DNA of 64,000 nucleotides from Ruminococcus sp. (GTDB lineage: Bacteria; Bacillota; Clostridia; Oscillospirales; Ruminococcaceae), in contig JAIDCY010000027.1 in the NCBI GenBank assembly GCA_029055625.1, positions 226 to 64,225 on the forward strand, given 5' to 3'. This document shows, in pieces, positions 23,936 to 50,700 of this stretch. The stretch's first letter is position 1. Each line of letters begins with the position of its first letter. The position numbers and the translations under genes are program-made. The notes below the pieces were generated by a model. It had not been told where the DNA came from, ran no database searches, and saw only the letters and a list, made by a program, of their open reading frames with translations.

Positions 23936-23967
23936 AAAATTTTAATATAAATAAAGGAGTTTTTAAA

Positions 23968-25008
23968 ATGGCAGACACAAGATTTACAGCTTTAGGACTT
24001 TCCGGAAGCGGAAAAACCTGTTACGTTCTCGGTATGTATTACGAGATGGTAACAGGCATGAAAGGTTTCACCCTCAAGACAGCTAATGAAACAGCATCAA
24101 AACTTGAAGACTGGATGGATAAACTCGACGACGAAACAGGGGCTGACAGATTCCCTGCCGGTACAGGTCTTACGGAAGTTTCAAACTATGCTTTTGACAT
24201 GAACTATCAGAACAAATACGTAATGAGTTTCGACTGGATGGATTACGGCGGACGTACTCTCAGGGAAAAGGAAAAAAATCCGCAGGCTTTTGCAGAACTT
24301 CAGAAATCTATCAAGGAATCAACAGCTCTTTATATCTTTATCGACGGTGAGCTTCTCTGTGAGGAAGAAACGGAAGAAAAGATTAAAAAGGTTAAAAGAA
24401 AATGCGGACGTATCATAAATCCGTTTATTACTGATTTTATTCAGGAAAACGGCTCAAACCTTCCGCCTATCGTATTTGTTATCACAAAATCCGACCTCTG
24501 CAGAGAGTACATAAAAAGCACCGGGGAAGTATATGACGTTATTTCCGAATCTTTCAGCAGTGTGTTCGGTAAGGACGGCAGATGTTATATAACCACCGTT
24601 TCACTCGGTGAAGATATTGAGGAAGAAGACGGCGAAGCAGACCCGATAAACATTCAGATTCCCTTCTTTATCGGAATATATCATGAATTTCTCAATATAT
24701 GCTATGGTATCAAATATCAGATTGAAGAGGATGAAAGGGGTCACCGTGAGGCAATAAACAGAAATCAGAATGAAATCGCACGTCAGAACAACAGATGGTT
24801 CTTCACTGACTATGACGCTATTTCACAGGCAAGAAGCAATATCCAGAATGCGGAAGCAAGTATTGCAAATAACAAGGAATACCTTAAATATATCAAAAAA
24901 CTTCTTCTTTCCGTTGCAGGAGAACTTACAAGACTTAGCAGTAATTTCGTACTTATAGAAGGTGGCAAGGAAACAGACTTCTCCGCTGACGAAGCTTACG
25001 AATTTTAA
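23968..25008 (+). CDS. TRAFAC-type GTPase with C-terminal coiled coil
   Basis: G1 GLSGSGKT, G3 DYGG, G4 VITKSD; strong RBS AAGGAG. Confidence 0.8.
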   Translation: MADTRFTALGLSGSGKTCYVLGMYYEMVTGMKGFTLKTANETASKLEDWMDKLDDETGADRFPAGTGLTEVSNYAFDMNYQNKYVMSFDWMDYGGRTLREKEKNPQAFAELQKSIKESTALYIFIDGELLCEEETEEKIKKVKRKCGRIINPFITDFIQENGSNLPPIVFVITKSDLCREYIKSTGEVYDVISESFSSVFGKDGRCYITTVSLGEDIEEEDGEADPINIQIPFFIGIYHEFLNICYGIKYQIEEDERGHREAINRNQNEIARQNNRWFFTDYDAISQARSNIQNAEASIANNKEYLKYIKKLLLSVAGELTRLSSNFVLIEGGKETDFSADEAYEF

Positions 25009-31178: not shown

Positions 31179-32369
31179 ATGAACGAATACGAAGAAATAC
31201 AACGCTGGCTGGACGAACAGGCAAAAAATTATATTCCGACGGAAGAAACGTTAAAGGATTACGGGCTTACAATGAAAACTGCATCAGAGCAGGCGGACTT
31301 ATACAGGGAAAAATTTTTCCGGTTATTGCGGAAATACGGCATCATCACAGATAATATCAGTGTAATAATTGCGGAAGTTGACAGACTGATATGTGAAACT
31401 CAGAATGAAGATTTACTGTTTGTCTATACTGCACTTGCAACGGAAAAAGGTTTATTTTTCGGCGATATGTACGACGAAGAGCAGAAAATTATTTGCTGGC
31501 TGAAACAGTGGGGAAATGCGGAAAAATTTTCAAAAGCGATACAGAATGATAAAATCTATAAAAAACGGCTTGCAGGTCTGCAAGGATTTGTTGAGAATAA
31601 GGATTCTGAAGAACCGGATACGGAAGAGCAGACGTTATTATATCAGATGTCGATAGAACACGATTTCCTTTATAAAGGCAGAAAAAGTAAATTTTATCTG
31701 GAGAATATCGGCGAACTTGTCCGGAAAGTAAATTCAGTTCCGGAACTGAAAGTTATAAAGCCTTATGTATACAGTGCGATACTCAGCCGGAAACACAATC
31801 TTATGATTAACAGAAAAAATTACAGTCCGAATTTTGCGAACATCTTTGAAAGAACGGATTACAGGATAAAAACGGATAACGGCAAAAATTTTGACACTTA
31901 CCAGTCGTATATAGAATTATATGACCACCTCCGGCGGTTTTATCAGGACGAAGCAGACATTGATTTTTCCGATTATTACTTTTCACATCTTAATAATCTG
32001 AGTGAGTGGTATTACGAAAACTGTGAACCGAACGAAGAAATCCCCATGACACTTGAACGTATGGCGAAACATTATATAAATCATATAAATATTAAAATTC
32101 CGGAATATATAGAAAAAAAACAACCATTACTCGAAATAGTATATGACAATATCCTGGCGAATGAAACGAAATGGTCTGATATGATAAATGACGTTCAGAA
32201 CGGCGGTAATATCAGTAATTACTGCGAAAGACTTTATAAAATGGCAGATGGTATGAGACTATGCGGGAACAGAAAAACCGCCTTGAAGTATGCGGAACTT
32301 CACCTGATTGTATTTATGGAGGAAATAAACCACCGGATTCTGACGAATGGTTATAAAAATTTTCTGTAA
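31179..32369 (+). CDS. Hypothetical protein, paralog of 40884..41942
   Basis: RBS GAAAGGAG; shares NF..YQS..ELY.HLRR.Y, FSDY.F..L..LSEWYY.NCEPNE.IPM with the paralog. Confidence 0.75.
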   Translation: MNEYEEIQRWLDEQAKNYIPTEETLKDYGLTMKTASEQADLYREKFFRLLRKYGIITDNISVIIAEVDRLICETQNEDLLFVYTALATEKGLFFGDMYDEEQKIICWLKQWGNAEKFSKAIQNDKIYKKRLAGLQGFVENKDSEEPDTEEQTLLYQMSIEHDFLYKGRKSKFYLENIGELVRKVNSVPELKVIKPYVYSAILSRKHNLMINRKNYSPNFANIFERTDYRIKTDNGKNFDTYQSYIELYDHLRRFYQDEADIDFSDYYFSHLNNLSEWYYENCEPNEEIPMTLERMAKHYINHINIKIPEYIEKKQPLLEIVYDNILANETKWSDMINDVQNGGNISNYCERLYKMADGMRLCGNRKTALKYAELHLIVFMEEINHRILTNGYKNFL

Positions 32370-32440
32370 AAACAGTTCCGGAAAAAATAAAATCCGCTGT
32401 GACAATAATTTCACAACGAATCTTTATTTTTATTCCGCTT

Positions 32441-34162
32441 CTAAAACCGGGAGGCATATATAAGGCATCTGTTATTCAGAGAACGATATGACGCCAATAA
32501 ATCCTGTTTATTGTTTTCCGACATCATAATTATATCCCTGAATTTTATTTTTCCGGCGGAATATTTCAGCAGGAAACTTTCACATTCACTGAAAATATAA
32601 CTGCCATAAGTGAGCAAACCGTTCTTATATTCCAGAAGACTAAACGTTCTTACAGGATATAATTCAAGCAGTTCATCATCTGTATAATCATTGTTTCCGT
32701 GACGATATATTGAAATAATTCTTTCAATATAATTTACAATATGTTCCTGTTTAAGATAATAATCTTTCCATAAAGAAGATATATTCAGACGTTCACCAGC
32801 CTTGAAGAAAATACGTTCAACATCTGCTTTAACGGCATTCCGTGACAACATTCTTATTTTTTCCTTAAGCATTTCATCAAATGTTTTCTTGAAAGAAATC
32901 AGTTTTTCATATTCCATTGATTCAGGCTTCATCAATGGCATCTGCATGGAATATATACAGGTGTTTTCGTCAACTCCGGAATATTCAAGATTATAATCAG
33001 CCGGATTTAAAGTAATAGGTGTGTGCGGATAAGGTGCAAGAAATACGGTTTTACACTCAAACATTCCCTGACCTGCTTCAAGCATTTGTTCCGCAAGCTT
33101 CATACTTTCCGATATTGATTCTTCCGTTTCGTATGCACCGCCAACGATAAAATTTCCGACCAGCCGGGGCAGTCCCGCATTTTTACAGATATTCACAACT
33201 TCTAAAATCATATCCCTGTCGGTTTTCTTATTATACGCTTCAAGTACAGTATTACTTCCGCTTTCAATACCAATCTGCAAACCAATCATTCCGGAATCAA
33301 CCATAATTTTTACCATTTCCGGATTTTTAGCTATATTTGAAGTATGCCCCTCACAATACCAGAATAACTTTCTTTTTTTCACTTCCTTACAAAAAGCTTC
33401 AACCCGTCTGAAATCAAGAGTGAATGTATCATCATATATATTCAGATACTTTAATTTATGGTTTTCGGAAATGGCAAAATCAATTTCAGAAATTACGTTT
33501 TCTATGGAGCGTAAACGCACTTTTTTAGTATTTGCCCCCTCGTAACAGAAAGCACACCGGAAAGGACAGCCCCGACCCGTAATGATTCCGAAATCAATTT
33601 TATTTCTGAAATCTGAACCGATACATCTTTTCCGGCTTGGGAACGGTATTTCATCAAGATTACAGAAAGGCTTCGCAAGGGGATTTTCATGATAAATATT
33701 ATTTTTATCAATATAACGCAGACTCTGTACCTGCTCCAGCGGAAGTATATTATCAATAATACAGCTCAGCAACTGATATTCCGGAATTTCCCCCTCTCCC
33801 TCTATAACAAAATCACAGCCTGTTTCACGCAGAAAATCTTCTTTCAGGGCAACAGCTTCAGGACCTCCGGCAATTGTATATACATTATAAGTCTTTTTAA
33901 TCCATTCAATCAGATGCTTCACAACTGAAAGATTATCTGTTGCTGTATAAAATCCTATAACAGGTACGGAATCTTTTTCTATTGCTCCGGAAATTATTTC
34001 TTCACAGTCTCCGGTAGTTCCGGAATAAACCATCGCCTTGAATCCTTTGGTTTCAAGATATGATGCTATGGAATGCTGACCCAGATTATCAAACATATGA
34101 GAAGGAATGCGTTCAACGTTCATAAGAAGAAGTTCATACTTAGTGGCATCCGTAATTTTCAT
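32441..34162 (-). CDS. Cobalamin-dependent (class B-like) radical SAM protein
   Basis: B12-binding N-domain (IASYL...IAGGPEA...GEGE), GRGCPFRCAFC, IYDDTFT, GIESGS, FIVG...ET.ES; extra C-terminal ~100 aa. Confidence 0.9.
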   Translation of the reverse strand: MKITDATKYELLLMNVERIPSHMFDNLGQHSIASYLETKGFKAMVYSGTTGDCEEIISGAIEKDSVPVIGFYTATDNLSVVKHLIEWIKKTYNVYTIAGGPEAVALKEDFLRETGCDFVIEGEGEIPEYQLLSCIIDNILPLEQVQSLRYIDKNNIYHENPLAKPFCNLDEIPFPSRKRCIGSDFRNKIDFGIITGRGCPFRCAFCYEGANTKKVRLRSIENVISEIDFAISENHKLKYLNIYDDTFTLDFRRVEAFCKEVKKRKLFWYCEGHTSNIAKNPEMVKIMVDSGMIGLQIGIESGSNTVLEAYNKKTDRDMILEVVNICKNAGLPRLVGNFIVGGAYETEESISESMKLAEQMLEAGQGMFECKTVFLAPYPHTPITLNPADYNLEYSGVDENTCIYSMQMPLMKPESMEYEKLISFKKTFDEMLKEKIRMLSRNAVKADVERIFFKAGERLNISSLWKDYYLKQEHIVNYIERIISIYRHGNNDYTDDELLELYPVRTFSLLEYKNGLLTYGSYIFSECESFLLKYSAGKIKFRDIIMMSENNKQDLLASYRSLNNRCLIYASRF

Positions 34163-35240
34163 TGTATAATTCCTCTCGTTTTTCTTTCAGTTTATTTTCA
34201 ATAAAAACAAGCCCGTCGGTCATGAGATACCTGAAAAATTTTTTATAGTCATTACATAAAGGGTTTCTGTGGCTTCCGTCAATCCATACCATATAGGGAC
34301 AGCCACCGTTACAGATTTTCTGGAATTTACACGCCGAACACTCCGGACGGATTTCCGGCTTGTACATTTTATTTTCAAAAGGCAGTGAAATATTATCAAC
34401 GTTTATATTTCCACCGCTGAAAGCCTTGTTATCACAGAATCTTCCGCAAGGATAAATTTCACCTTTATAATCAATTGCTATGAAATTACAGAAACAGTTT
34501 CCCGAAAAAGTACACTCACCGTATGGTGAATGACTGAAAATCTTTTGTGAAAGGCTTTCGACCGGCTGAAAAGGAATATCAAGCTCATTTGACATGATAT
34601 ACTCATATACTTTTATAAGATATTCCGCATACTGTCCGGATTCAAGAAGAATTTCACTGTTATTTTCCGCTTCACCGCAATTAATCAGCGGATTTATTTT
34701 TATCGGGATGTGATGTTCTGCGAATTTATCAAGGAAAGAAAAATCATCTGTTACATTTGCCCCCACTACCATAAGAGCGGAAGCAGGTATATTTTCTGAT
34801 TTCATTTTCAGGATATTGTTAAAAATAGTATCATAAGTAGGTTTTCCGTTTATATCCGTCCGGGTCTGATTGTGAATATCAGCAGAACCGTCTATACTTA
34901 CGCCGATTCTGAAACCGTATTCTGAAAAAAGATTAATGAATTTATCATTTATATGATAGCCGTTACTCTGCATACGCCAGCAGAAAGTAATATCCGGATA
35001 TTTTTCATTTATCCTGCTGATGGCTTGTTCATAAAATTCACATGGTACTATTGTAGGTTCTCCGCCATGAAAAATAATATCAACCTTGTCTTCATTTCCC
35101 GCCCTTGAATTTTCCACACAGAAACAGATGTTTTTATATAGCTGTTCTTCTGAAATTATATGAAAGTCCGATTTGTCACCGACACAGCAATATTTACAAC
35201 GCATATTACAGCCATCCGTAACTTTAAGAATATAGTTCAT
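34140..35240 (-). CDS. Radical SAM/SPASM domain protein (peptide/protein maturase type)
   Basis: CNMRCKYC, FHGGEP, QSNG, GVSIDG...HN..R; SPASM G.IYPC and CSACKFQKICNGGC (Cx2Cx5Cx3C). Confidence 0.9.
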   Translation of the reverse strand: MNYILKVTDGCNMRCKYCCVGDKSDFHIISEEQLYKNICFCVENSRAGNEDKVDIIFHGGEPTIVPCEFYEQAISRINEKYPDITFCWRMQSNGYHINDKFINLFSEYGFRIGVSIDGSADIHNQTRTDINGKPTYDTIFNNILKMKSENIPASALMVVGANVTDDFSFLDKFAEHHIPIKINPLINCGEAENNSEILLESGQYAEYLIKVYEYIMSNELDIPFQPVESLSQKIFSHSPYGECTFSGNCFCNFIAIDYKGEIYPCGRFCDNKAFSGGNINVDNISLPFENKMYKPEIRPECSACKFQKICNGGCPYMVWIDGSHRNPLCNDYKKFFRYLMTDGLVFIENKLKEKREELYNENYGCH

Positions 35241-35245
35241 AATTA

Positions 35246-37012
35246 TTATCCCTTCATTGCGGAAAGTCGGGAAACTGCGGTATCAATGAGTTTTACCGCT
35301 TCCTGATTGAGATTCACAACCGGACGGAAATACATATCAATAAGTTCGTTAATCTGTACTTCCACGTTATCCTGAAAATATACGTTAATCTGTGAAGTTA
35401 TAGCATCCCTTATTGCAGATTCATTAACGCCGGTATTGATATTATGATGTTTTGTTACCGTCCGGGTATGGTTTTCATAATATTCTTTTCCGAAAAAAGA
35501 ACCGATATGTTCAAAAAGACCATGTGGTGGACGTGAACGTCTTTCCACAAATTGCTGTTGATAGGAAATACTTTCCGTCTGCATTTTCATTTCCGGAATA
35601 CTGAAACCGTTTTCCTGCATATTATCAAAAATACGTGTGGAATTGCTTGTCATGAACTCGGAAAGTTCCCTTTCACAGATAGTGCGTGAGGATTCGGAAA
35701 TAATTTTTACAATATCGCCGGAAATTCTGCCGGAACTTATACTTTTGCCACCGTCTCCTATTTCCGTACGATACCGGCTGATTAAATTCTGAATTTTCGC
35801 CATTGAATCCGATTTTATCATAGTACGTATGCTTTCTTTTTTCGTGTCAAGTTCCTGTATCTGCCTGTTAAAATCGCTTATATTTTCATTGAGTGTCTTT
35901 TTAAGACCCATAAGCGATTCCGTATTTTCATTACCTATAACATCAGTAATCATAGTATTAATACGTTTCATAGGGGTTGCAAGCTTCATCTGTCCTGCGT
36001 CGTTCTTTGTGATTTCAATTAACTTATCAAGAAATTTATCGATATTACTTTGTCTGTACTGTTCGTCGTCACCGTTTCTGAATGCTTCAACGGCGAGCTG
36101 TTTTGATATTGTCATAATACTGCTGTACTGAAGAATATCATCAAGATTCTGTTCACGTATACTATCAAGCAGATAATCTTCAACGTCCTTTCTGTCCTTG
36201 TCACTTTTCGCCATCAGAACTTTGATTATATTTCCGTCGTCGTCGCAGTCTTCGTCGTAAGTGTCGGACATAGTGACGAGAAGAAGAACAGGTTTTTTCA
36301 TTTCTGCAAATCTTTTCATTTCAAGAAATTCCTGCTGAGTTCCTGCCGCATCTGAACTGCACGTAAAAATAACGAGGTCTGAATTCTGAATATATTCCTT
36401 TGCAAGTTCTTCATTTTCCTTCGTTATACTGCCTATACCGGGGGTATCAAACCATGAAAGACCGCCTATTGTAAAATACTGAATAGTACTTGTAGTTTCC
36501 GTTGAACCCACGCCGAATTCACAGTCTTCTTCCGAAAGAGTTTCCAGCTTGTTGCTTGTTGTGATTTTTCCCCTGTCCTCAACGGTGACAACGGGCTTTA
36601 TCTTATCGTATTCAGAAGAAATACCGAGTTTTTTTATCTCACTGCCCATTATAAAGTTACCGAGCGAGCTTTTACCGGACTTCACTTTTCCGAATACGGA
36701 AACAACAAATGTTTTTTCATGTCCTTTGATAAATGACATTCCTTTTCCGGATTCAAGTATTTTTGCCGTACCTGTTTTTATGCACTCGTTCAGAACGGAA
36801 GTAACATTCTTTTTAAGAGATGCAATATTCATGCTGTCTTCAGGATTGGCGGAATTTCTGACGAGATTGTTTATCTGCTTTTCCATATCGGAAAAAATCT
36901 GTTCTATCTGTGCCTGCTTATCCTCGTATGCTTTTATTCCCTGCGAAAACTTTTCTTCTGAATCAAGCATTGCACTGACAAAATTATTGACGCTGTCTGT
37001 TCTGAATGACAT
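35246..37012 (-). CDS. Bacterial dynamin-like GTPase
   Basis: G1 FGKVKSGKSS, G2 region GSTETT, G3 DTPG, G4 VTMSD, long helical C-terminus with a hydrophobic GLFEHIGSFFG loop. Confidence 0.8.
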   Translation of the reverse strand: MSFRTDSVNNFVSAMLDSEEKFSQGIKAYEDKQAQIEQIFSDMEKQINNLVRNSANPEDSMNIASLKKNVTSVLNECIKTGTAKILESGKGMSFIKGHEKTFVVSVFGKVKSGKSSLGNFIMGSEIKKLGISSEYDKIKPVVTVEDRGKITTSNKLETLSEEDCEFGVGSTETTSTIQYFTIGGLSWFDTPGIGSITKENEELAKEYIQNSDLVIFTCSSDAAGTQQEFLEMKRFAEMKKPVLLLVTMSDTYDEDCDDDGNIIKVLMAKSDKDRKDVEDYLLDSIREQNLDDILQYSSIMTISKQLAVEAFRNGDDEQYRQSNIDKFLDKLIEITKNDAGQMKLATPMKRINTMITDVIGNENTESLMGLKKTLNENISDFNRQIQELDTKKESIRTMIKSDSMAKIQNLISRYRTEIGDGGKSISSGRISGDIVKIISESSRTICERELSEFMTSNSTRIFDNMQENGFSIPEMKMQTESISYQQQFVERRSRPPHGLFEHIGSFFGKEYYENHTRTVTKHHNINTGVNESAIRDAITSQINVYFQDNVEVQINELIDMYFRPVVNLNQEAVKLIDTAVSRLSAMKG

Positions 37013-37024
37013 ATATTTCCCTCC

Positions 37025-37477
37025 TTAATCTTTACCATCAAGACCGTATTCAGTCATAAGCTGATTACGCATAGTGCCCAGACTACTTATAGCATATTCA
37101 ATATCTTTAAGTTGCTGGTCAAATCCGGCGGTTTCAGCCTTTATTTCTTTATCATAGTCAACATTAATTTTGTGAGTTCCGGCTGACTGTATTTCATTAA
37201 GTGAAACATTTTCAACATTGGAATCGGATATACTACCCTTAGAAGTTCCGGAAAGATATTTCTGTAACTGATTATTTTTAATATCAATCAGGGTTCTCTT
37301 TGCGGATTCATATTCATTTCTTGCGGCTTCCTGTCTTCTGCGACGACGTTCTGCGGCATCGCTGTAATCGCTGTGGTTACTGTAGTTTCCGTAATCGCTG
37401 TGGTCGCTGTAGTCGCTGTGGTCACTGTGAGCGATAGCACCTATTATAGCACCACCAACTGCTATCCAAACTGGCAT
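37025..37477 (-). CDS. Small protein with N-terminal hydrophobic helix, eight (H/Y)-x-(D/N) repeats and a coiled coil; candidate radical SAM substrate
   Basis: RBS AAGGAGG; MPVWIAVGGAIIGAIA then HSDHSDYSDHSDYGNYSNHSDYSD then a charged helix. Confidence 0.8.
   Translation of the reverse strand: MPVWIAVGGAIIGAIAHSDHSDYSDHSDYGNYSNHSDYSDAAERRRRRQEAARNEYESAKRTLIDIKNNQLQKYLSGTSKGSISDSNVENVSLNEIQSAGTHKINVDYDKEIKAETAGFDQQLKDIEYAISSLGTMRNQLMTEYGLDGKD
37358..37429 (-). repeat. Eight degenerate 9-bp coding repeats
   Basis: CACAGCGAC/TACAGCGA(C/T)-like units encoding HSD/YSD/YGN/YSN. Confidence 0.9.
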
Positions 37478-37494: not shown

Positions 37495-38394
37495 TTATAT
37501 ATTGTTATATTCGTCTCTTTTGCTTTTCACGATATTGTACTGATTCCTGAACATCTCAAATACAGATTTCCATTCATTTTTTAAAGAATCGTACTTTTGT
37601 TTTATTCTGTCGACAACGTTCTGTTTTGTTTCCCTGATTTGTTTTTTCCTGATGTCAAGTTCTGTCTTGCTCTCCTTACAGAGACTGTATAGCTGTTCTG
37701 CAATAAGGTAATCCGAAACGGCAGAATAAGCATCTGCTTTTTTTATTATCGCCTCCTTTATTTCCGGGATTCTGCTCATTTCAATCATTTTGTCCTTGCC
37801 TTTTTCCACACCGGTAAGATAACGCTTGACAGAGATTTCATAGAAATCAATATCACAGCCAACGGCTTCTTTTACCATACGGCGAGTTTCTTTGATTGTA
37901 TCCGGATATGATGGGTCAGACTGTCTCTCATCAATCCAGCTACATACAAACATAAGCCTTGCCTTTTTCTCACGGTTACTGCTCATTCTTCCGGCGATGG
38001 ACTGAAGCCATTTATACTCCGCATCATTAAGCATACCGAGTTTTATATTATGAATCATGATGATAATATCAGATTCAAGGATTGAATTTAATGCAACCTG
38101 TGTATCTTCTTCGTTTACGTCAATACCGGGTGTATCGACAATATCGATTTTGTCCGTAAGACTTTCTATGTCCTGACTTTTTGTAACTCTCGCCGCACCT
38201 GTTGCGAAACGTTCGGACGAATCGATAAGAACATTGAACAGACTGCTTTTTCCGGAACTTACAAGTCCGGTATTTGCGATTTTAATTTTTCTTTCAGTAT
38301 TCATACGTGAGTTTATACTGCTCCATTTGTACGAAAGTTCCTGAGAAAGATTTTCTTCCATAATAGTTAATAAACGTTCTGATATTTTTATCAT
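37495..38394 (-). CDS. Short dynamin-like/TRAFAC GTPase
   Basis: G1 GLVSSGKSS, G2 region GAARVT, G3 DTPG, G4 region CSWID, C-terminal helix. Confidence 0.75.
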   Translation of the reverse strand: MIKISERLLTIMEENLSQELSYKWSSINSRMNTERKIKIANTGLVSSGKSSLFNVLIDSSERFATGAARVTKSQDIESLTDKIDIVDTPGIDVNEEDTQVALNSILESDIIIMIHNIKLGMLNDAEYKWLQSIAGRMSSNREKKARLMFVCSWIDERQSDPSYPDTIKETRRMVKEAVGCDIDFYEISVKRYLTGVEKGKDKMIEMSRIPEIKEAIIKKADAYSAVSDYLIAEQLYSLCKESKTELDIRKKQIRETKQNVVDRIKQKYDSLKNEWKSVFEMFRNQYNIVKSKRDEYNNI

Positions 38395-38398
38395 ATTA

Positions 38399-40000
38399 TC
38401 ACCTTATCCTGTTTTTTATTGTTAAAGCCTTTGTTTTAAAAGTGTTAAGCTGACGGCATAAATCAAGCAGTAAATCCATTTCCTGCTGATTTCTGTTAGC
38501 AGAAGCAAGAATACACGCTTCCGCTTTTTCAAATACGGCGGAAAGCTGAGAGGTCATAAGGGTTCGCATATCAACACGGATTTTATGACTTTGTGTTTCA
38601 ACGGAAATTCTTATATCCTGCCTCCGCCTTGCTTCATTGAAGGCATTTTCTTCAGCTATCCGGTTTCTTTCCCTTGCTTCCTCCTGAAGACGCTTGAATT
38701 CTTTAAGTTCCTTCTCTTTTCTTGAACCGAAAATTTTTGAAAAAATATTCACAATGAGAAGAGGATTCGGAGCAGGTGTGGGGGAAATTATATTACTTGC
38801 CACTCCGGTTAAACTGCCGAGTATATCTGTTCCGGAAATATCGTCATCATCTTCCGGCAGGCTGAAATCATTGTCTGTATGTTTTTCAGGACTTCCTTCA
38901 AAGTCCACCATATCGTAACCGGAAATATCACCGGAAATATTATTTGTCGTGATTCCCGAAAAATCAACCTGTGTATACTTTGCGGAAAAATATGACATAA
39001 GATTTCTGACGTTCTCACTGTACATATTTTCAAATTCCCTGTACATTGACTGTATGTTTTCTTCCCAGCTGTTATTGTTTCTGCTGTAAGCGGATTCAAT
39101 CAGTGTTCTTTCATATCTGCTTACCATCATATCAACATTATACGGTATCTCTTCCATGAATGAGTTGCGTTTTGCCCTTATGTCGGAAAGATAGGAACTG
39201 AAAACATCATTAATATCAGGATTTGTTTTTTCTTCCGCATCGGCAAGCATTTCATCAAGTAAAGCGATAAGATTATTTACAGGAGCAGTATATATATGCA
39301 TAGCAGACCTTGAATGAAGAAAATGAAGTATTCTGTCTTTAATCATAGGGAGATTACTTAATTCAACAAGTTTTTCTTTCTGTTTCAGCTGACCCATAAG
39401 GGCACGCTTACCGTTTACTGCTATAGTATCGAATAAGTTTTCTATATGATGATTACCGCTTACTTTCTGAAGATTTTCAATAATCTTACACTTTATGCTG
39501 TTGATGTTTTCACTGTTCCTGATGTCGTTTTCACTGTTTTTGTCATTGATAACAATAATAAAAGGTTTTCCGGTTTTAATAAGCCTGTACATATTTTCAT
39601 AGTTCCGGATGCTTTCAAATCCGCCTTTTGTACTTATAACATAGAGAATAACATGACAGTCTGCAATATTATCTTCCGTAATCTTCTGATGTTCAACAGG
39701 TGCGTCAACCCCCGGACTGTCTATCAATGTATAGTCGCCGTTGTCGTATTCATCTATTCTGTATGTTGTGGGACAGTCTCTCATTTCAGCGACTTCTTTT
39801 CCGATAATAGCGTTAATGAGCGTACTTTTTCCCGCATTGTAGATACCATAAACCATAACTTTAGGTTTTTCGGCAAGAATAAGCGAAAGAACTTCTTTAT
39901 TTATTCTGTTCAGATAATCCTGTTCATTATTACCATTTAATTTAAACCATTCAACAACTTCTGATGTCAGTTGTTCAATATCATATTTAATATCTGACAT
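38399..40000 (-). CDS. Bacterial dynamin-like GTPase (LeoA-like)
   Basis: G1 YGIYNAGKST, G2 region DCPTT, G3 DSPG, G4 region VINDK, helical stalk; ATG at 40000 after GAAAGGA. Confidence 0.8.
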   Translation of the reverse strand: MSDIKYDIEQLTSEVVEWFKLNGNNEQDYLNRINKEVLSLILAEKPKVMVYGIYNAGKSTLINAIIGKEVAEMRDCPTTYRIDEYDNGDYTLIDSPGVDAPVEHQKITEDNIADCHVILYVISTKGGFESIRNYENMYRLIKTGKPFIIVINDKNSENDIRNSENINSIKCKIIENLQKVSGNHHIENLFDTIAVNGKRALMGQLKQKEKLVELSNLPMIKDRILHFLHSRSAMHIYTAPVNNLIALLDEMLADAEEKTNPDINDVFSSYLSDIRAKRNSFMEEIPYNVDMMVSRYERTLIESAYSRNNNSWEENIQSMYREFENMYSENVRNLMSYFSAKYTQVDFSGITTNNISGDISGYDMVDFEGSPEKHTDNDFSLPEDDDDISGTDILGSLTGVASNIISPTPAPNPLLIVNIFSKIFGSRKEKELKEFKRLQEEARERNRIAEENAFNEARRRQDIRISVETQSHKIRVDMRTLMTSQLSAVFEKAEACILASANRNQQEMDLLLDLCRQLNTFKTKALTIKNRIR

Positions 40001-40049
40001 ATTAACTATCCTTTCATAAATTTGTAACAATTAAAATTGTCCATATGTC

Positions 40050-40079
40050 ATTATAACACTGAAAGTTATATTTTGTCAA
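40050..40079 (-). promoter_or_regulatory. sigma-A-type promoter of the dynamin/radical SAM operon
   Basis: Minus strand TTGACA (40079-74), 18-nt spacer, TG-t-TATAAT (40055-50). Confidence 0.65.
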
Positions 40080-40159: not shown

Positions 40160-40495
40160 ATGAAAAAAATAAATTATCATGAAATGGGCAACAGAATACG
40201 AAAACAAAGAGAATTTTTAGGGTATACAAGAGAACAACTGGCGGAAAAACTGGAAGTTTCCACAAAATTCTGTTCTGATATTGAACTGGGTGTGAAAGGG
40301 GTATCAATTCAGACACTTTCCCGACTTTCTGAAATTCTCTGTCTTCATACAGATTATATACTTTTCGGAAGTGAAACCGATAATTCTTCAGAACTGGAAA
40401 TGCTGTCTGTTCTTGTCAGAAGATGTCCTGAAAAATCAAGGAAAGAACTGATTACTATTATAAATGCATATATCAGAGCGGTTTCTGATGATTGA
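40160..40495 (+). CDS. XRE-family HTH transcriptional regulator
   Basis: MG.RIRKQRE.LGYTREQLAEKLEVS..F.SDIELG.KG.S; divergent from the dynamin operon. Confidence 0.9.
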   Translation: MKKINYHEMGNRIRKQREFLGYTREQLAEKLEVSTKFCSDIELGVKGVSIQTLSRLSEILCLHTDYILFGSETDNSSELEMLSVLVRRCPEKSRKELITIINAYIRAVSDD

Positions 40496-40883: not shown

Positions 40884-41942
40884 TTATATGATATATTCTG
40901 CAATATCAAGCATTTTTTCCCTCAGTTCATATTCCGCATCACAATATATCTGATATTCCGTTTCTTCAAGTGTTTCATAGTCTTTATAACTCATAATCAC
41001 AGGAAATGATTTCGACATTAACGTTTCAATTTTACTTCTTGTACTCATCGGAATCGGTTCATTTGGTTCACAGTTCTGATAATACCATTCACTGAGCGGA
41101 CTGAGATTTGCGAAACAATAATCTGAAAATGAGATGTCAACTTCCGGAGAATCCTCATAATATCTCCGGAGATGTTCATATAGTTCAAGTGCAGACTGAT
41201 AAGCATTGAAATTTCTTCCGTTATCCTTATAGATATTATATTCCTGATATTTCAGCACGCTTTTAATATTCGGGATATAATGTTTACGTTCTGTCATAAG
41301 AGTAGTACGCCGACTTAAAACCGCAGAAATAATATATGGTTTCAATGAACATAATTCATTATGACTGTTTACCTGATACATAAGCCCGTTTATATTTTCA
41401 TAATAAATCCTGCTGTTTTTTCCTTTATTAAGAAAATTATGCTGTAAAGTCATATGCAGAATATCGTCCAGTTCTTCTTCATACCCGGAAACAGTATTAT
41501 ATGGGTGTTTCAGTATCTTAAAAACTTCATGTAAACGTTTTTTCATAACGCACTGTTCATAAAGAAAATCCGTTAAATTATCTGAAAATTTTTTCTGTTC
41601 CGTCCAGTTGCGGATATCCTGTTCTGCCGTACGTTCGCCACGGTGCATATCCATTAAAACCCCACGGTCTGTGATAACCACAGAGTATATATAATGCAAA
41701 TCCTTATTTTCCGGATTTTTTTCTATCAGATTAATCAGGTCAATACAAACGGAAACAATATTATCCGGACATATCTTATACTTTTCCAGTAAATCAAAGA
41801 AGTTCTTTCTGTATTCATTTACTTTATTTAAAGCTTCATTAAAAGTCATATCATTATTTTTAAGAAAATCTTTGAAATTAACATATTTTTCCGCCTCTTC
41901 ACATAAATATTTAAAAATTTCATACTCTAAATCATAATTCAT
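40884..41942 (-). CDS. Hypothetical protein, paralog of 31179..32369
   Basis: See the shared motifs listed for 31179..32369; start overlaps the upstream gene. Confidence 0.75.
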   Translation of the reverse strand: MNYDLEYEIFKYLCEEAEKYVNFKDFLKNNDMTFNEALNKVNEYRKNFFDLLEKYKICPDNIVSVCIDLINLIEKNPENKDLHYIYSVVITDRGVLMDMHRGERTAEQDIRNWTEQKKFSDNLTDFLYEQCVMKKRLHEVFKILKHPYNTVSGYEEELDDILHMTLQHNFLNKGKNSRIYYENINGLMYQVNSHNELCSLKPYIISAVLSRRTTLMTERKHYIPNIKSVLKYQEYNIYKDNGRNFNAYQSALELYEHLRRYYEDSPEVDISFSDYCFANLSPLSEWYYQNCEPNEPIPMSTRSKIETLMSKSFPVIMSYKDYETLEETEYQIYCDAEYELREKMLDIAEYII

Positions 41943-47770: not shown

Positions 47771-50700
47771 CTATAACGACAAGAAACTCCGCTTTTTAAA
47801 ATAAATATCAGGAAGTATTATAGCAGATTCATCAGTATCATCTTTGCCTTTCCATGCACAAACTAATCTGATTTTTGCACAATAAGGATAATACCCTTCT
47901 GACATCTTTTTCTTGATTTTTTCATTGCCAGCTGATGAAAACTGCAATACAGGCAATGCTTTATTTTGTGATTCCAAATAAAGTTTATTTCCTATAATGC
48001 TCAGATATAATCCACTATAAAGTTTCAGTATTAACTGCTTTTTATCCTTGAAGTAATCAAGAAATACATCTCTATGAGACAACTGTAATATCAGTTCATC
48101 CGGATCGGGATAGGAGATATAATTATTTTCAAAACACATTGACATTTCGGAATATTTGTCGAATTGTTGACCTGAATAATGAATATGAAGAAATTTTTTA
48201 GCACGTGTAATGCCCACATAAATTTTTCTTTTAGCCTCATCATTATCAACAGGAACATTATTCAACAGCATAAAAACATTATCAAATTCCCTGCCTTTTG
48301 ATTTGTGCATAGTTGAAACGGTAATAATCCCCTGTTCACTTTCATAAAAATCTTCAAGTTTGGATTCATGCAGAAATATCAGTAAATCTGTGCGATATAT
48401 TTTAGTATTTGTCTGTCTGAATGTATTCAATATGTCAAGCAAATCAGGCAAAAACTCACTTTTTGAATACCTTTCTTTTAATTGTTCAACCGCTTTGTCC
48501 CATTGCTTATCACTTATAACGGGTAATACATCATCTGTTTCAAGTTTTTTTATAAAAAATCTTATTTCTGCAATATTATACATATCGAAGTCGTCATTGG
48601 ACTGAATAAGCTTTGATGGAATTTTTTTCTGTTTCAGCAATCCTAAAACAGTTAAAGCCTCCTGATTGGTGTTTGTAAGAACACAAGTTGTACCCGTAAT
48701 TGATGATGAAATAATATCATTAACAACAGGAATTTCCATATTACAACTGCTGTGCCTTATAATTTTAACCTCGCCGTTATTTTCTGAAACAGGATTTATA
48801 TTTTCGGTTTTCATTCTCTGAGAAATATCACTTGCAAATCTGTTTGCAAAATCAACAACACTGCGACAACTTCTGTAATTATCAACAAGAAAATATTGTA
48901 CAGCATTATGGTCTGTTATAAACGACCTGAGATACTTTGAATCCGAGCCTCTAAACTGATAAATATTCTGGTCATCATCGCCGACAGCAATAATACGCAT
49001 ATCGTCGTTTCTTGCCATTAAAGCTTTAACAAGGTTAAATTCGTTTTTGTCCATATCCTGAGCTTCATCAATTACAAGAACAGTTTTTGTTATTCTGCCA
49101 AGGTCAACATCACCATTTTGAATCAGTTCCGCAGCATCTCTTACAATATTTTCAGAATCCTGTAAATTTCCGATTTTTCCAATCAAATCAAAACAATATG
49201 AATGAAATGTTTTTATTTCAATAAAATGTGCTGAATTACCAATAAGTTCATGTAAACGCTGTTTAAATTCAATTGCAGCAGCTCTTGAAAATGTCAGCAT
49301 AAGTAATTGTTCATGTTTTACATCTTCCAATAAAAGTAACGCCGCTAATTTATGCACTAATACTTTTGTTTTTCCACTTCCCGGACCTGCCGTCACAACA
49401 ATATATTGTGCTGAATTATCGTTTATGATTTCAAGCTGTTTTGGTGAAAGCGTATCAAAAAGCTGATGATATTTTTCAGGAGTAATATTACGTTCTATTT
49501 GTAAAGCACGCTCACCGGAAAAATAATGTGACAAAAATTTTTTATAGTCCATTTGGAAATAATCATTTACAAACTTCAATGCTGATTTGTAATCACGAAC
49601 CATCATATTGGCATATTCTCCGATTATATGTATCTGCTGGATTTTATGCTTATAGAATTCATTAAGTTGCCTATAATCATCAACTTTATAACGAATTTTA
49701 TTATCAAGAACAAGCCGTTTCAATCTCATACCGTTGTACAGAACAAAAAATCCACCATCTAATTTTAAAGCACCTATTTTTGATAAGAACAACAATGCTT
49801 CCTCAATATCATTTTCGGAAATATCAGAATTAAATTGAGAATTATATGTACATTTCAATTCAAGCTCAGAAAAACCGACTAAAACTTCTTCTGCTTCACT
49901 TGCCTGAAAATTACTGTGCTTAAACAGATAATGAATGATAAATTCTGCAATTTTGTAGCTTTTCATTCGTTTTTCAGCAAGATTTTCAAGTTTGATTTTC
50001 AGAACAACAGTTACTTTTTTTGTTTCCTCGTCCTGTTCTTTTTCAATGTAACTTTTTATAGTCCAATAATAAAAAAGAGTTTTTATTGCATTAACCGTAC
50101 TTGACTTAATACCGTTTGCAAGAGCAGAATCGTTCAATTCCTTATAATTTATACAAAAATTATCTTCATCTAAATTTTCGAGTAAAAACTTTTCGAGTGC
50201 CTGAAACTTATGTAAAACCAAAAGTGATTTATTTACTGTATCAGTTTTAAGAATATATGCCGTTAAATCCTTTGCATCTGAAAGAATTCCCTCTCCACGC
50301 ATCTGCTGAACAGCGTTAAGAATTTCGGATTTTTCTATACCGAGACGGTCTGCCAGATAGTCAATTCTTGACTCTGCATCAAAATTATCAGCATTGGAAA
50401 TACTTTTACTTGAAATCAAAGATTTAATAATCCTCTTAGCCGTCTGCCGTTCAATATCATTTGCAAATCTGTGAGAATTTTCAATTTTTTTAACTGCTTC
50501 CATCATATTTTTAACAAGAATACTTGTTGCATATATTCTTGGAACATTCTTTCCTCTTTTAATATATCCTGCGTTTTCAAGAGCCTGAATAGCCGTCTTG
50601 ACTCTGGTTTCAATATCGGCAACACTATCATCCCAACCTGCCTGACGTGCAACTTCCAATGGTGAACAGCATATTTCTGGTCTTGTCTTTGTCAAAGTTT

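What the first reader, a model, noticed from the sequence alone, without database searches (positions are those of the whole stretch)
37025..37477. Eight perfect aromatic-X-(D/N) tripeptides embedded in a membrane-anchored coiled-coil protein
Seen: residues 17-40 read HSD-HSD-YSD-HSD-YGN-YSN-HSD-YSD (nt 37358-37429), directly after a Gly-rich hydrophobic helix and before RRRRR and a coiled coil. Established: triceptide maturases (radical SAM/SPASM cyclophane formers) cross-link an aromatic residue at position 1 (W/F/Y/H) to the residue at position 3 of three-residue motifs, often in tandem. Inference: the adjacent SPASM enzyme, whose FHGGEP motif I associate with those families, could install up to eight His/Tyr-to-Asp/Asn cross-links. 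That would stiffen a juxtamembrane segment of a full-size protein rather than a classical leader-core peptide. The His/Asp array could instead bind metal.
Basis: partly seen in the sequence, partly recalled or inferred. Interest (0 to 1): 0.85.

Follow-up and report, generated by a model that had tools for sequence, protein, structure and literature searches.

The report
Radical-SAM-stapled anchor of a dynamin operon
A small membrane-anchored protein with eight back-to-back His/Tyr-x-Asp/Asn triplets always sits in one operon with three dynamin-like GTPases and two radical SAM enzymes. The triplets are most likely stapled into small rings by chemistry so far known only from peptide natural products, but no experiment has shown this yet.

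Summary
Window 37025-37477(-) encodes a 150-aa protein: a hydrophobic N-terminal helix, then HSD-HSD-YSD-HSD-YGN-YSN-HSD-YSD (nt 37358-37429), then AAERRRRR and a predicted two-helix hairpin. It is gene 3 of a six-gene operon with three LeoA/LeoBC-like dynamin GTPases, a SPASM radical SAM enzyme and a B12 radical SAM enzyme.

In every related locus that was long enough to judge (about 17, from several phyla), the same cassette recurs. The small-protein family has 253 representatives, and 145 of 147 examined carry at least four [H/Y/W]-x-polar units (Asp or Asn at position 3 in 82%).

The SPASM enzymes form their own clade. They lack the Asp that is invariant in the anaerobic-sulfatase-maturase-like clade. 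Their nearest sampled relatives sit beside classical short precursors rich in Tyr-x-Asp. Tyr-C3 to Asp-Cbeta rings (YxdB) and His-C2 rings are published triceptide chemistry.

The best reading is a triceptide-type maturase stapling the linker next to the membrane in the only membrane anchor of an Eleos-like, probably anti-phage, dynamin machine. The chemistry is inferred, not shown. I found no paper describing this combination.

The parts
40050..40079 (-). Promoter-like site in front of the operon: TTGACA, 18-nt spacer, TG-TATAAT, 12 of 12 matches
   Evidence: It lies about 20 nt upstream of the first GTPase gene. This is a consensus match only.
40160..40495 (+). Divergently oriented XRE-type helix-turn-helix regulator (111 aa), a possible regulator of the cassette
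   Evidence: HTH_3, E 1.2e-8. L026 also has an HTH_3 gene upstream of its cassette. Other cassettes carry a WYL regulator instead.
38399..40030 (-). Gene 1: dynamin-like GTPase, 543 aa, LeoA/LeoBC-like
   Evidence: Dynamin_N 5e-14, MMR_HSR1 9e-15. PADLOC LeoA 1.1e-27, LeoBC 9.6e-26. Conserved in all cassettes.
37495..38394 (-). Gene 2: short GTPase, 299 aa, LeoA-like G domain
   Evidence: MMR_HSR1 8e-10. LeoA 6.2e-16. Conserved in all cassettes.
37025..37477 (-). Gene 3: the 150-aa repeat protein, the proposed substrate and membrane anchor
   Evidence: No Pfam or NCBIfam family matches. The family has 253 representatives at 50% identity.
37430..37477 (-). Residues 1-16, MPVWIAVGGAIIGAIA: a Gly/Ala/Ile-rich hydrophobic helix and the only transmembrane-like segment among the four non-enzyme proteins
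   Evidence: hydropathy 1.99. The three GTPases reach at most 1.19 in a 19-residue window. 139 of 147 family representatives have a hydrophobic N-terminus.
37358..37429 (-). Residues 17-40: eight contiguous aromatic-x-(Asp/Asn) units, the proposed radical SAM target
   Evidence: Among 16 context-verified homologues, position 1 is Y 79, H 22, W 1; position 2 is S 75, D 12, G 11; position 3 is D 69, N 28, E 3.
37334..37357 (-). Residues 41-48, AAERRRRR: a conserved basic block that fixes the register of the array and predicts that the C-terminal part faces the cytoplasm
   Evidence: Alignment A3: E43, R44, R45 and R48 are invariant or nearly so. The topology follows from the positive-inside rule and is inference.
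37046..37366 (-). Residues 38-144: predicted two-helix hairpin (helices 38-75 and 93-144)
   Evidence: AlphaFold2 with 16 sequences, block pLDDT 58-87 in this part, mean 65, pTM 0.31. Moderate confidence only.
35246..37012 (-). Gene 4: dynamin-like GTPase, 588 aa, LeoBC-like
   Evidence: Dynamin_N 1.7e-10. LeoBC 3.9e-22. 320 database homologues; the two whose contexts were examined are in the same cassette.
34140..35240 (-). Gene 5: radical SAM/SPASM enzyme, 366 aa. The CxxxCxxC motif is at residues 11-18, there is no N-terminal recognition domain, and 8 conserved C-terminal Cys residues suggest two auxiliary clusters. This is the proposed cross-linking enzyme.
   Evidence: SPASM model TIGR04085 scores 47.5 bits against a cut-off of 27. 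The closest solved structure is anSMEcpe 4K36. The enzymes form their own clade with support 97/87. The motif C-G-R/K replaces the C-D of the sulfatase-maturase-like clade in 53 of 53 cases.
32441..34162 (-). Gene 6: B12-binding (class B) radical SAM enzyme, 573 aa. Its start overlaps gene 5 by 23 nt. It is the proposed second modifier; C-methylation is the default expectation.
   Evidence: B12-binding 7e-12, Radical_SAM 2.7e-26; only far-below-cut-off hits (HpnJ, PhpK, ApyD); distant matches to AprD4, OxsB, CysS and TokK. Always present next to the SPASM gene.
32389..32424 (-). Terminator-like hairpin (14 pairs) followed by a T-run, just after the last gene
   Evidence: Pattern match only.

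Best explanation
Gene 3 encodes the membrane-anchoring subunit of a three-GTPase dynamin-like machine related to the Eleos (LeoA/LeoBC) anti-phage system.

Its N-terminal helix sits in the membrane. The Arg block and the helical hairpin face the cytoplasm, where they would contact the GTPases. The 24-residue linker between them is a tandem array of aromatic-x-(Asp/Asn) units.

The co-transcribed SPASM radical SAM enzyme probably abstracts the Cbeta hydrogen of residue 3 (Asp or Asn) and joins that carbon to the ring of residue 1 (Tyr C3 or His C2). This would give up to eight back-to-back three-residue cyclophanes, each costing 2 Da. That is triceptide chemistry, as shown for YxdB, HaaB and YhhB. 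The B12 radical SAM enzyme probably adds a second modification to the same segment, most likely C-methylation.

The product would not be cleaved or exported. It would stay as a rigid, protease-resistant linker next to the membrane.

Shown here: the anatomy, the operon, the invariable co-occurrence in the loci examined, the family-wide conservation of the unit, the separate clade of the enzyme, and the defence-type neighbourhoods.

Inferred: the substrate-enzyme relation, the bond type, methylation, topology, and the defence function.
For: 1. Operon. Six minus-strand genes have gaps of 17 nt or less, or overlap. They lie between a 12/12 promoter match and a terminator-like hairpin.

2. Co-occurrence from three independent starting points.
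- Starting from the repeat protein: L001, L005, L009, L013-L017 and L019.
- Starting from the SPASM enzyme: L023-L026 and L034-L036.
- Starting from the 588-aa GTPase: L029-L031, including the cultured Clostridium novyi A str. 4570.
Every locus long enough to judge has the three GTPases, the repeat protein, the SPASM enzyme and the B12 radical SAM enzyme. The hosts include Bacillota, Synergistota and Riflebacteria.

3. Family-wide conservation. Of 147 representatives, 145 carry at least 4 units. Position 1 is Y 583, H 248, W 9, F 2. Position 3 is D 62%, N 20%, E 6%, R 4%. Free exchange of His, Tyr and Trp fits a requirement for an aromatic residue, not metal ligation. L015 keeps the units but inserts spacers between them.

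4. The enzyme side.
- SPASM domain with 8 conserved Cys.
- The cassette clade is monophyletic (97/87) and separate from the clade that contains the named sulfatase maturase.
- The residue after the third auxiliary-cluster Cys is Asp in 20/20 of the sulfatase-maturase-like clade, Gly in 53/53 cassette enzymes and Asn in 5/5 of the next clade.
- That next clade sits beside short precursor-like ORFs rich in Tyr-x-Asp: L027 has 8 such motifs in 56 aa, and L032 and L033 are similar.

5. Published precedent. YxdB makes a Tyr C3 to Asp Cbeta bond. HaaB, YhhB and HtkB make His C2 to Cbeta bonds. OscB makes Trp C7 to Asn/Asp Cbeta bonds (PMC11002830, PMC11499958).

6. No sulfatase-type substrate in this genome. 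The only PF00884 protein is LtaS-like and has no C/S-x-P-x-R motif.

7. The repeat protein has the only transmembrane-like segment among the non-enzyme proteins.

8. Defence context.
- The GTPases hit the LeoA and LeoBC models.
- WYL regulators, PDC-M09A and BnzB-like genes, or a patatin gene are attached to other cassettes.
- The window lies downstream of tmRNA, between a DO-GTPase pair and a DpdF/GajB-like helicase.
- The 588-aa GTPase was found in only 1 of 399 genomes sampled from the same class.
Against: - There is no biochemical evidence.
- The enzyme is below the cut-off of every curated 3-residue-cyclophane family. By sequence it is at least as close to sulfatase maturases (4K36, 148 bits) as to the one solved triceptide synthase, ChlB (85 bits, N-terminal half only).
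- Position 2 is Ser in 66-74% of units. The enzyme could therefore act on Ser or Asp alone rather than making a ring.
- In a gap-free array the reading frame of the unit (Y-S-D, D-Y-S or S-D-Y) cannot be fixed from sequence.
- Two lineages (L014, and L029/L030) have an in-frame TAA stop inside the SPASM gene yet keep an intact repeat. The modification may be dispensable there, or those cassettes may be decaying.
- AlphaFold2 gives no structure for the repeat region.
- All characterised triceptides are cleaved peptides (PMC12912966).
Confidence: 0.55

Rival explanations
1. The radical SAM pair does modify the repeat, but with different chemistry. Options include oxidation of Ser or Asp Cbeta to formylglycine or aminomalonate, in the manner of a sulfatase maturase. 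Others are ether or C-N links as made by DarE and DynA, larger i-to-i+3 Tyr/His rings, or only methylation by the B12 enzyme.
For: The best NCBIfam scores are DynA and the sulfatase maturase model, nearly tied. The best solved structure is anSMEcpe, matched along its full length. Ser dominates position 2. From my own memory, not checked here: Ma et al. 2021 (Angew. Chem.; cited in PMC12186529) reported a 3-residue-cyclophane enzyme that makes formylglycine and aminomalonate in vitro and shares ancestry with sulfatase maturases.
Against: The Asp that is invariant in the sulfatase-maturase-like clade is Gly in 53/53 cassette enzymes. From memory, that Asp is the catalytic base D277 of anSMEcpe. 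Position 2 is not invariant (Gly, Asp, Ala, Asn and His occur), whereas aromatic position 1 is essentially invariant. The Tyr-x-Asp ring has direct precedent.
Confidence: 0.22
2. The repeat is not modified. It is an acidic, aromatic, disordered linker next to the membrane, or a Ca2+ or transition-metal binding array. The two radical SAM enzymes act on something else: one of the GTPases, a lipid, a nucleotide or another small molecule.
For: His/Asp and Tyr/Asp arrays can bind metals. Two cassettes with a stop codon in the SPASM gene keep the repeat. The SPASM enzyme has weak PADLOC hits to prokaryotic viperins. Class B radical SAM enzymes often act on small molecules.
Against: His, Tyr and Trp interchange freely at position 1 and Asp, Asn, Glu and Arg at position 3. 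That is a poor fit for a defined metal site. SPASM enzymes of this branch are peptide or protein modifiers. The nearest sampled related clade is paired with short precursor-like ORFs rich in Tyr-x-Asp. The viperin hits cover only the generic radical SAM core, residues 6-167. No other repeat or Cys-rich candidate substrate is conserved in the cassette.
Confidence: 0.15
3. Gene 3 is a true RiPP precursor. The hydrophobic N-terminus or the helical tail acts as leader or follower, and a polycyclophane peptide is cut out and released, for example as a toxin or signal.
For: All characterised triceptides are proteolytically released. Relatives of the enzyme are in classical precursor/maturase clusters.
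Against: No peptidase or exporter gene is conserved in about 17 cassettes. The tail is a conserved 100-residue helical hairpin, not a short follower. The protein always sits between GTPase genes.
Confidence: 0.05

Closest known systems
Triceptides and their 3-residue cyclophane-forming radical SAM/SPASM enzymes, especially YxdA/YxdB (Tyr C3 to Asp Cbeta), and HaaB, YhhB, HtkB (His C2 to Cbeta) and OscB (Trp to Asn/Asp Cbeta)
   Same: Tandem Omega1-X2-X3 motifs with Tyr, His or Trp at position 1 and mostly Asp or Asn at position 3. A radical SAM/SPASM enzyme is encoded next to the substrate. The enzyme belongs to the same broad sulfatase-maturase/DynA/DarE/cyclophane-former branch.
   Different: The substrate is a 150-aa membrane-anchored protein with a conserved helical hairpin. 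There is no leader-core organisation, no protease and no exporter. The enzyme is below every curated family cut-off and forms its own clade. It is always paired with a B12 radical SAM enzyme and three GTPases. The chemistry is untested.
Eleos ('Dynamins') anti-phage system and the E. coli LeoA/LeoB/LeoC bacterial dynamins (Millman et al. 2022, bioRxiv 10.1101/2022.05.11.491447; Michie et al. 2014)
   Same: Consecutive dynamin-like GTPase genes match the LeoA and LeoBC models at E 1e-16 to 1e-28. The cassette lies in variable, defence-type regions with WYL regulators and candidate defence genes.
   Different: Eleos is a two-gene system. Here there are three GTPases, a repeat-bearing anchor and two radical SAM enzymes. 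No anti-phage test exists for this cassette.
Anaerobic sulfatase-maturating enzymes (anSMEcpe, PDB 4K36)
   Same: Closest solved structure by sequence. It aligns over the full length, including both auxiliary-cluster Cys sets and the GGEPT motif.
   Different: The score of 169 bits is below the 349 cut-off. The Asp after Cys276 is replaced by Gly throughout the cassette clade. The cassette enzymes form a separate clade. The genome has no formylglycine-type sulfatase.
Dynobactin and darobactin maturases DynA and DarE
   Same: DynA is the highest-scoring NCBIfam model (182 bits). These enzymes cross-link aromatic side chains, including His, to Cbeta of a residue two positions away.
   Different: The score is far below the 450 cut-off. 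There is no short precursor, the taxonomic setting is different, and the partner genes are different.

Membership tests
Triceptide system (3-residue cyclophane-forming enzyme plus precursor) | Radical SAM enzyme with a CxxxCxxC motif and a SPASM domain carrying auxiliary clusters | tested here: met
   Radical_SAM 5.9e-17. TIGR04085 scores 47.5 bits against a cut-off of 27. C11, C15 and C18 plus 8 invariant C-terminal Cys.
Triceptide system (3-residue cyclophane-forming enzyme plus precursor) | Co-encoded substrate with Omega1-X2-X3 motifs, where Omega is Trp, Phe, Tyr or His (definition from PMC11499958) | tested here: met
   Eight units in the window. 145 of 147 family representatives have at least 4 units.
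Triceptide system (3-residue cyclophane-forming enzyme plus precursor) | Enzyme belongs to a recognised cyclophane-forming family (XyeB/XncB, GrrM/OscB, FxsB, YhhB, AmcB, WgkB models) | tested here: not met
   YhhB 108 bits (cut-off 445), GrrM 99 (310), AmcB 92 (425), FxsB 89 (370), XyeB 66 (450). No YxdB model or sequence was available.
Triceptide system (3-residue cyclophane-forming enzyme plus precursor) | Aromatic-carbon to Cbeta cross-link, -2 Da per motif | not testable with these tools
   Needs co-expression followed by LC-MS/MS and NMR.
Triceptide system (3-residue cyclophane-forming enzyme plus precursor) | Short leader-core precursor that is cleaved before the first ring (PMC12912966) | tested here: not met
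   The substrate is a 150-aa protein with an N-terminal anchor and a conserved helical hairpin. No protease or exporter is conserved in about 17 cassettes.
Anaerobic sulfatase maturase | Score over the TIGR03942 cut-off and placement in the sulfatase-maturase clade | tested here: not met
   169 bits against a cut-off of 349. The cassette clade is separate from the clade holding the named sulfatase maturase.
Anaerobic sulfatase maturase | Asp following the third Cys of auxiliary cluster I (D277 of anSMEcpe; its role as catalytic base is from my memory) | tested here: not met
   Gly in 53/53 cassette enzymes, against Asp in 20/20 of the sulfatase-maturase-like clade.
Anaerobic sulfatase maturase | A sulfatase substrate with the C/S-x-P-x-R motif in the genome | tested here: not met
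   There is one PF00884 protein. It is LtaS-like, has multiple transmembrane segments and lacks the motif. The genome is 92% complete.
Eleos / LeoABC dynamin-like defence system | LeoA-like and LeoBC-like dynamin GTPases encoded side by side | tested here: met
   PADLOC LeoA and LeoBC hits on all three GTPases, E 6e-16 to 1e-27. The PADLOC models have no curated cut-off.
Eleos / LeoABC dynamin-like defence system | Two-gene architecture without accessory enzymes | tested here: not met
   The conserved cassette has six genes.
Eleos / LeoABC dynamin-like defence system | Protection against phage | not testable with these tools
   Only contextual support: WYL regulators, PDC-M09A/BnzB-like genes, patatin, a tmRNA-adjacent island and a patchy distribution.
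DynA (dynobactin maturase, NF041298) | Score over the equivalog cut-off | tested here: not met
   182 bits against a cut-off of 450.

The most novel reading that the evidence does not exclude
Peptide-natural-product chemistry has been recruited to build a permanent structural element of a cellular machine. A radical SAM pair would convert the linker next to the membrane, in the only anchor of a dynamin-like immune complex, into a rod of up to eight fused three-residue cyclophanes, possibly methylated. This would be the first triceptide-type modification of a non-secreted, full-size protein, and the first link between RiPP-type maturases and dynamin-based anti-phage defence.
Probability: 0.4. 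Interest if true: 0.85.

Novelty: new variant of a known kind. Interest (0 to 1): 0.74.

Why it matters
Three-residue cyclophanes are known only in small, cleaved, secreted peptides. Finding them in a membrane-tethered subunit of a GTPase machine would show that this chemistry is also a true protein post-translational modification with a structural role.

It would also give the poorly understood bacterial dynamin (Eleos-type) defence systems a concrete handle that can be mutated: the anchor and its staples.

The family is compact and easy to test. It has about 250 sequence clusters and a conserved six-gene cassette. One cultured carrier (Filifactor villosus CCUG 46385) could supply the genes, and the readout is a simple mass shift.

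The enzymes are a new, well-separated clade for radical SAM enzymology. They carry a C-G-R/K signature where sulfatase maturases have C-D.

Tried and rejected
- Signal peptide. The window protein has A-I-A just before His17, but there is no basic n-region, and the A-x-A is not conserved in homologues. Rejected.
- Selenocysteine or recoding in the split SPASM genes of L014 and L029/L030. The in-frame stops are TAA at a conserved Tyr and a conserved Glu, so they are nonsense mutations, not Sec.
- A second Omega-x-D array in the genome (contig C68). It is an off-frame reading of a low-complexity surface-protein gene.
- His-Xaa-Ser (HxsA/HxsB) system. The spacing does not fit, because Ser is at i+1 rather than i+2, and HxsB scores only 70 bits.
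- Prokaryotic viperin. The PADLOC hits cover only the generic radical SAM core.
- The two flanking paralogues, 31179-32369(+) and 40884-41942(-). They have no family hits. A homologue travels with the cassette only in the close R. flavefaciens relative L013. They are not part of the conserved cassette.
- The natural experiment with repeat-less family members (P0285, P0339/P0360). A tail-only alignment was too weakly conserved to scan with.
- Phylogeny with named cyclophane formers. Their sequences were not obtainable with these tools, so only a tree with unnamed relatives and one named sulfatase maturase was possible.
- Structure search with the AlphaFold2 model. Not done, because mean pLDDT of 65 and a disordered repeat would give meaningless matches.
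Full report
**1. The observation.** The minus-strand ORF 37025-37477 encodes a 150-aa protein:

MPVWIAVGGAIIGAIA | HSD HSD YSD HSD YGN YSN HSD YSD | AAERRRRRQEAARNEYES...

At DNA level this is a degenerate 9-bp tandem repeat with 7.8 copies and 73% matches.

I scanned all six-frame ORFs of at least 50 aa in the organism's own genome (2.5 Mb, 39.8% G+C, 1.93 million residues). This is the only run of eight consecutive [HYWF]-x-[DN] units, where composition predicts 1.4e-9. The runner-up (five units) is an off-frame artefact in a low-complexity gene.

The N-terminal 16 residues have a Kyte-Doolittle mean of 1.99 and no charge. Seven Lys/Arg follow the repeat. AlphaFold2, run with 16 homologues, leaves residues 1-38 unstructured (pLDDT below 50). 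It predicts two long helices, 38-75 and 93-144, at moderate confidence (mean pLDDT 65).

**2. The surroundings.** The gene is third in a tightly packed six-gene minus-strand operon:

| Gene | Coordinates | Product | Evidence |
|---|---|---|---|
| 1 | 38399-40030 | 543-aa GTPase | Dynamin_N / MMR_HSR1 |
| 2 | 37495-38394 | 299-aa GTPase | MMR_HSR1 |
| 3 | 37025-37477 | repeat protein | no family hit |
| 4 | 35246-37012 | 588-aa GTPase | Dynamin_N |
| 5 | 34140-35240 | radical SAM/SPASM enzyme | Radical_SAM, SPASM |
| 6 | 32441-34162 | B12-binding radical SAM enzyme | B12-binding, Radical_SAM |

A perfect 12/12 extended -10 promoter match precedes the first gene and a 14-pair hairpin follows the last. 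A divergent XRE-type regulator lies upstream.

In PADLOC, all three GTPases match the LeoA and/or LeoBC models of the Eleos ('Dynamins') defence system, with E-values of 6e-16 to 1e-27. None of the three GTPases has a transmembrane-like segment; their maximum hydropathy over 19 residues is 1.19 or less. The repeat protein is therefore the only plausible membrane anchor in the cassette.

The window as a whole looks like a variable or defence island. It holds tmRNA at 21123-21491, a DO-GTPase pair, dockerin proteins, this cassette, and a 1592-aa helicase that hits DpdF, PsyrT and GajB models.

**3. Related sequences.** I approached the family from three independent starting points.

- *From the repeat protein.* Four database relatives and ten genome loci were found. 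Where the contig is long enough, each has the same six genes in the same order. These are R. flavefaciens L013, Clostridium sp. L014, Lachnospiraceae L015, Riflebacteria L016, Filifactor villosus L019, and metagenome loci L001, L005 and L009. In Synergistales L017 the large GTPase has moved to the end of the cassette.
- *From the SPASM enzyme.* 54 clusters score at least 211 bits, followed by a gap to 150 bits or less. The three in-clade members I looked up, plus three gut-metagenome loci, all sit in the cassette.
- *From the 588-aa GTPase.* There are 320 database homologues. The two whose contexts I examined are again in the cassette, including the cultured Clostridium novyi A str. 4570.

No complete locus lacked the repeat protein, the SPASM enzyme or the B12 enzyme. 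The cassette is rare and patchy: only 1 of 399 genomes sampled from the same class has the 588-aa GTPase, and that one is the window's own genome.

Many cassettes add further genes. These are a WYL regulator and two downstream genes that match PADLOC PDC-M09A (E about 1e-90) and BnzB/PDC-M09B (E 1e-119 to 1e-134), or else a patatin-like phospholipase. The window's copy has none of these extras.

**4. The repeat across the family.** A profile search of 1.84 billion representative proteins gave 253 hits at E of 1e-3 or better, and 138 at 1e-10 or better. I examined 147 usable representatives.

- 139 have the hydrophobic N-terminus.
- 145 have at least four [HYW]-x-polar units. In-register runs range from 3 to 9 units.
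- Position 1: Y 583, H 248, W 9, F 2.
- Position 2: Ser 66%, otherwise mostly Asp, Gly, Ala.
- Position 3: Asp 62%, Asn 20%, Glu 6%, Arg 4%.

The array almost always ends in ...Y-S-D-A-A-E-R-R. In L015 the units are kept but separated by spacers: YSD-H-YSD-H-YSY-DD-WGE-YSD. The conserved entity is therefore an aromatic-x-X unit, not a mere period of three.

Free exchange of His, Tyr and Trp argues for a requirement for an aromatic ring and against a defined metal site.

Two representatives lack the repeat, P0285 and P0339/P0360. Both also lack the hydrophobic N-terminus. I could not retrieve their gene neighbourhoods.

**5. The SPASM enzyme.** The CxxxCxxC motif is at residues 11-18, so there is no N-terminal recognition domain. 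Eight invariant C-terminal Cys residues are enough for two auxiliary clusters. The SPASM model TIGR04085 is over its cut-off.

All named NCBIfam models are far below cut-off: DynA 182 bits (cut-off 450), anaerobic sulfatase maturase 169 (349), PapB 133, DarW 121, YhhB 108, DarE 108, GrrM/OscB 99. The closest solved structure is anSMEcpe 4K36 at 148 bits over the full length. The triceptide synthase ChlB (9GM3) matches only the N-terminal half, at 85 bits.

It is the generic SAM-binding motif and is not diagnostic.

In a maximum-likelihood tree of 89 relatives, the cassette enzymes are one clade with support 97/87. That clade is separate from the clade holding the one named sulfatase maturase, and from a third clade around P0060. 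The branching order of these three groups is not resolved.

One position separates the three groups cleanly. It is the residue after the third Cys of auxiliary cluster I:

| Group | Residue | Count |
|---|---|---|
| Sulfatase-maturase-like clade | Asp | 20/20 |
| Cassette clade | Gly (C-G-R/K) | 53/53 |
| P0060 clade | Asn (C-N-R) | 5/5 |

This Asp corresponds to D277 of anSMEcpe. From memory, D277 is the proposed catalytic base.

The genome has no formylglycine-type sulfatase. Its single PF00884 protein is LtaS-like and lacks the C/S-x-P-x-R motif.

**6. What the nearest relatives do.** The P0060 clade is 25-30% identical to the cassette enzymes and sits in classical RiPP-like clusters.

- L027 has a 56-aa ORF immediately upstream: MNKRIEEFIELHNTNDDCQYSDSTYHDEYHDYSDSTYHDDYVDDRYDDRYTDGRDY. 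It contains eight Tyr-x-Asp motifs.
- L032 has a partial ORF with HWD..YND..YHD.YYD.YDD.YGD..YHD.YRD.
- L033 has a 60-aa ORF ending CSYSEVHYQTEFSQTW.
- L027 (Pfam APH hit) and, by eye, L032 and L033 carry a kinase-like gene next to the enzyme.

Two further DynA-like SPASM enzymes lie next to long exported proteins full of Y/W-x-D/N units. These are L018 (Solibacteraceae) and L020 (Dehalobacter).

The literature confirms the chemistry exists. YxdB forms a Tyr C3 to Asp Cbeta bond. HaaB, YhhB and HtkB form His C2 to Cbeta bonds. OscB forms Trp C7 to Asn/Asp Cbeta bonds (PMC11002830, PMC11499958). Cyclophane formers and daropeptide maturases share ancestry (PMC12912966).

**7. The B12 enzyme.** This is a class B radical SAM enzyme. 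Its B12-binding domain is over the Pfam cut-off. It has only distant similarity to HpnJ, PhpK, ApyD, AprD4, OxsB, CysS and TokK. C-methylation is the default expectation for this class, but nothing here tests it.

**8. Most likely mechanism.**

*Shown.* The anatomy, the operon, co-occurrence in every locus examined, conservation of the unit, a distinct enzyme clade lacking the sulfatase-maturase Asp, relatives paired with Tyr-x-Asp precursors, and defence-type neighbourhoods.

*Inferred.* The N-terminal helix inserts with its N-terminus outside and its C-terminus inside, following the positive-inside rule. This leaves the repeat at the cytoplasmic face, where radical SAM enzymes can reach it. 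The SPASM enzyme abstracts the Cbeta hydrogen of residue 3 and joins that carbon to the ring of residue 1, unit by unit. The B12 enzyme decorates the same segment. The stapled and therefore stiff, protease-resistant linker connects the membrane to a helical hairpin that docks the GTPases. The whole cassette acts as an Eleos-like membrane-surveillance or defence module.

I put 0.55 on this reading, and roughly 0.75 on 'the radical SAM pair modifies the repeat in some way'.

**9. Caveats.**

- There is no biochemistry.
- The frame of the unit within a gap-free array cannot be read from sequence.
- Ser at position 2 is suspiciously common.
- Two lineages carry an in-frame TAA stop in the SPASM gene yet keep the repeat: L014 at the Tyr of YPCG, and L029/L030 at a conserved Glu. 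These may be recent decay, or a sign that the enzyme is dispensable.
- I could not include named cyclophane formers in the tree.

**10. Novelty.** No paper in the searchable library combines dynamin, SPASM and radical SAM. Papers holding both 'dynamin-like' and 'radical SAM' are almost all interferon reviews that mention Mx and viperin, and the one preprint on prokaryotic immunity that I opened does not describe such a system.

An earlier agent of this scan reported the same cassette type in another genome and reached the same reading. That is agreement between similar methods, not independent evidence.

I classify the finding as a new variant of a known kind. The chemistry and the GTPase family are known. 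What is new is the combination, and a substrate that is a full-size membrane protein rather than a cleaved peptide.

Noticed in passing
L014:5413-6540 and L029:10762-11898 (same in L030:7585-8721): The SPASM gene of two different cassettes carries a single in-frame TAA stop. In L014 it replaces the Tyr of the conserved YPCG. In L029/L030 it replaces a conserved Glu after IHD. The rest of each cassette, including the repeat, is intact. These look like independent nonsense mutations, not selenocysteine.
   Followed up: partly
L031:9408-11671, L025:10846-13025, L009:8908-11163, L029:13590-15818; L023:10831-11682 and L026:10733-11629: Many cassettes have two extra genes after the B12 enzyme, and those scanned (L031, L025) match PADLOC PDC-M09A (E about 1e-90) and BnzB/PDC-M09B (E 1e-119 to 1e-134). 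Others have a patatin-like phospholipase instead. WYL regulators flank several cassettes. The window's copy lacks all of these.
   Followed up: partly
L027:7773-9963, L032:3165-6326, L033:817-3774: A sister clade of SPASM enzymes (25-30% identical) sits in classical RiPP-like clusters. Each has a short precursor-like ORF rich in Tyr/His-x-Asp (8 Tyr-x-Asp motifs in 56 aa in L027). L027 has a Pfam-confirmed APH kinase-like gene; the L032 and L033 neighbours look kinase-like by eye only. This may be the YxdA/YxdB family, but that could not be checked.
   Followed up: partly
L018:4985-6864 (Solibacteraceae) and L020:6159-11432 (Dehalobacter): Long exported proteins carry many Y/W-x-D/N units (about 30 in L018) and lie next to DynA-like SPASM enzymes. 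L018 has a lipobox-like signal (read by eye). L020 has a Sec-type signal (read by eye), a second radical SAM enzyme and a 400-aa Cys-rich protein.
   Followed up: no
window 31179-32369 (+) and 40884-41942 (-): Two inward-facing paralogues of an unknown family bracket the cassette. They have no Pfam, NCBIfam or PADLOC hit. A homologue accompanies the cassette only in the close R. flavefaciens relative L013 (5530-6594), so they are not part of the conserved cassette.
   Followed up: partly
window 21123-21491, 22379-25008, 47771-52549: A tmRNA gene is followed by a DO-GTPase1/2-like pair. Further on, a 1592-aa protein joins a DEAD/RecQ-like helicase to a UvrD-like helicase and hits PADLOC DpdF, PsyrT and GajB models. 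Together these suggest a defence or variable island downstream of tmRNA.
   Followed up: partly
proteins P0285, P0339/P0360 (also P0253, P0261, P0273, P0288, P0304): A sub-family of the small protein replaces the hydrophobic N-terminus with an amphipathic 'MG(L/F)..D.L' start. P0339/P0360 has no aromatic-x-Asp array and P0285 has a poly-Asp run instead. Whether their loci still encode the radical SAM enzymes is unknown.
   Followed up: partly
cassette-clade SPASM enzymes, window residue 265-267 (nt about 34440-34448): A basic residue (Arg or Lys) follows the C-G of the third auxiliary-cluster Cys in the cassette enzymes inspected, and the P0060 clade has C-N-R. It might pair with the substrate's Asp carboxylate, mirroring the Asp214-Lys logic reported for HtkB. 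This is pure speculation.
   Followed up: no
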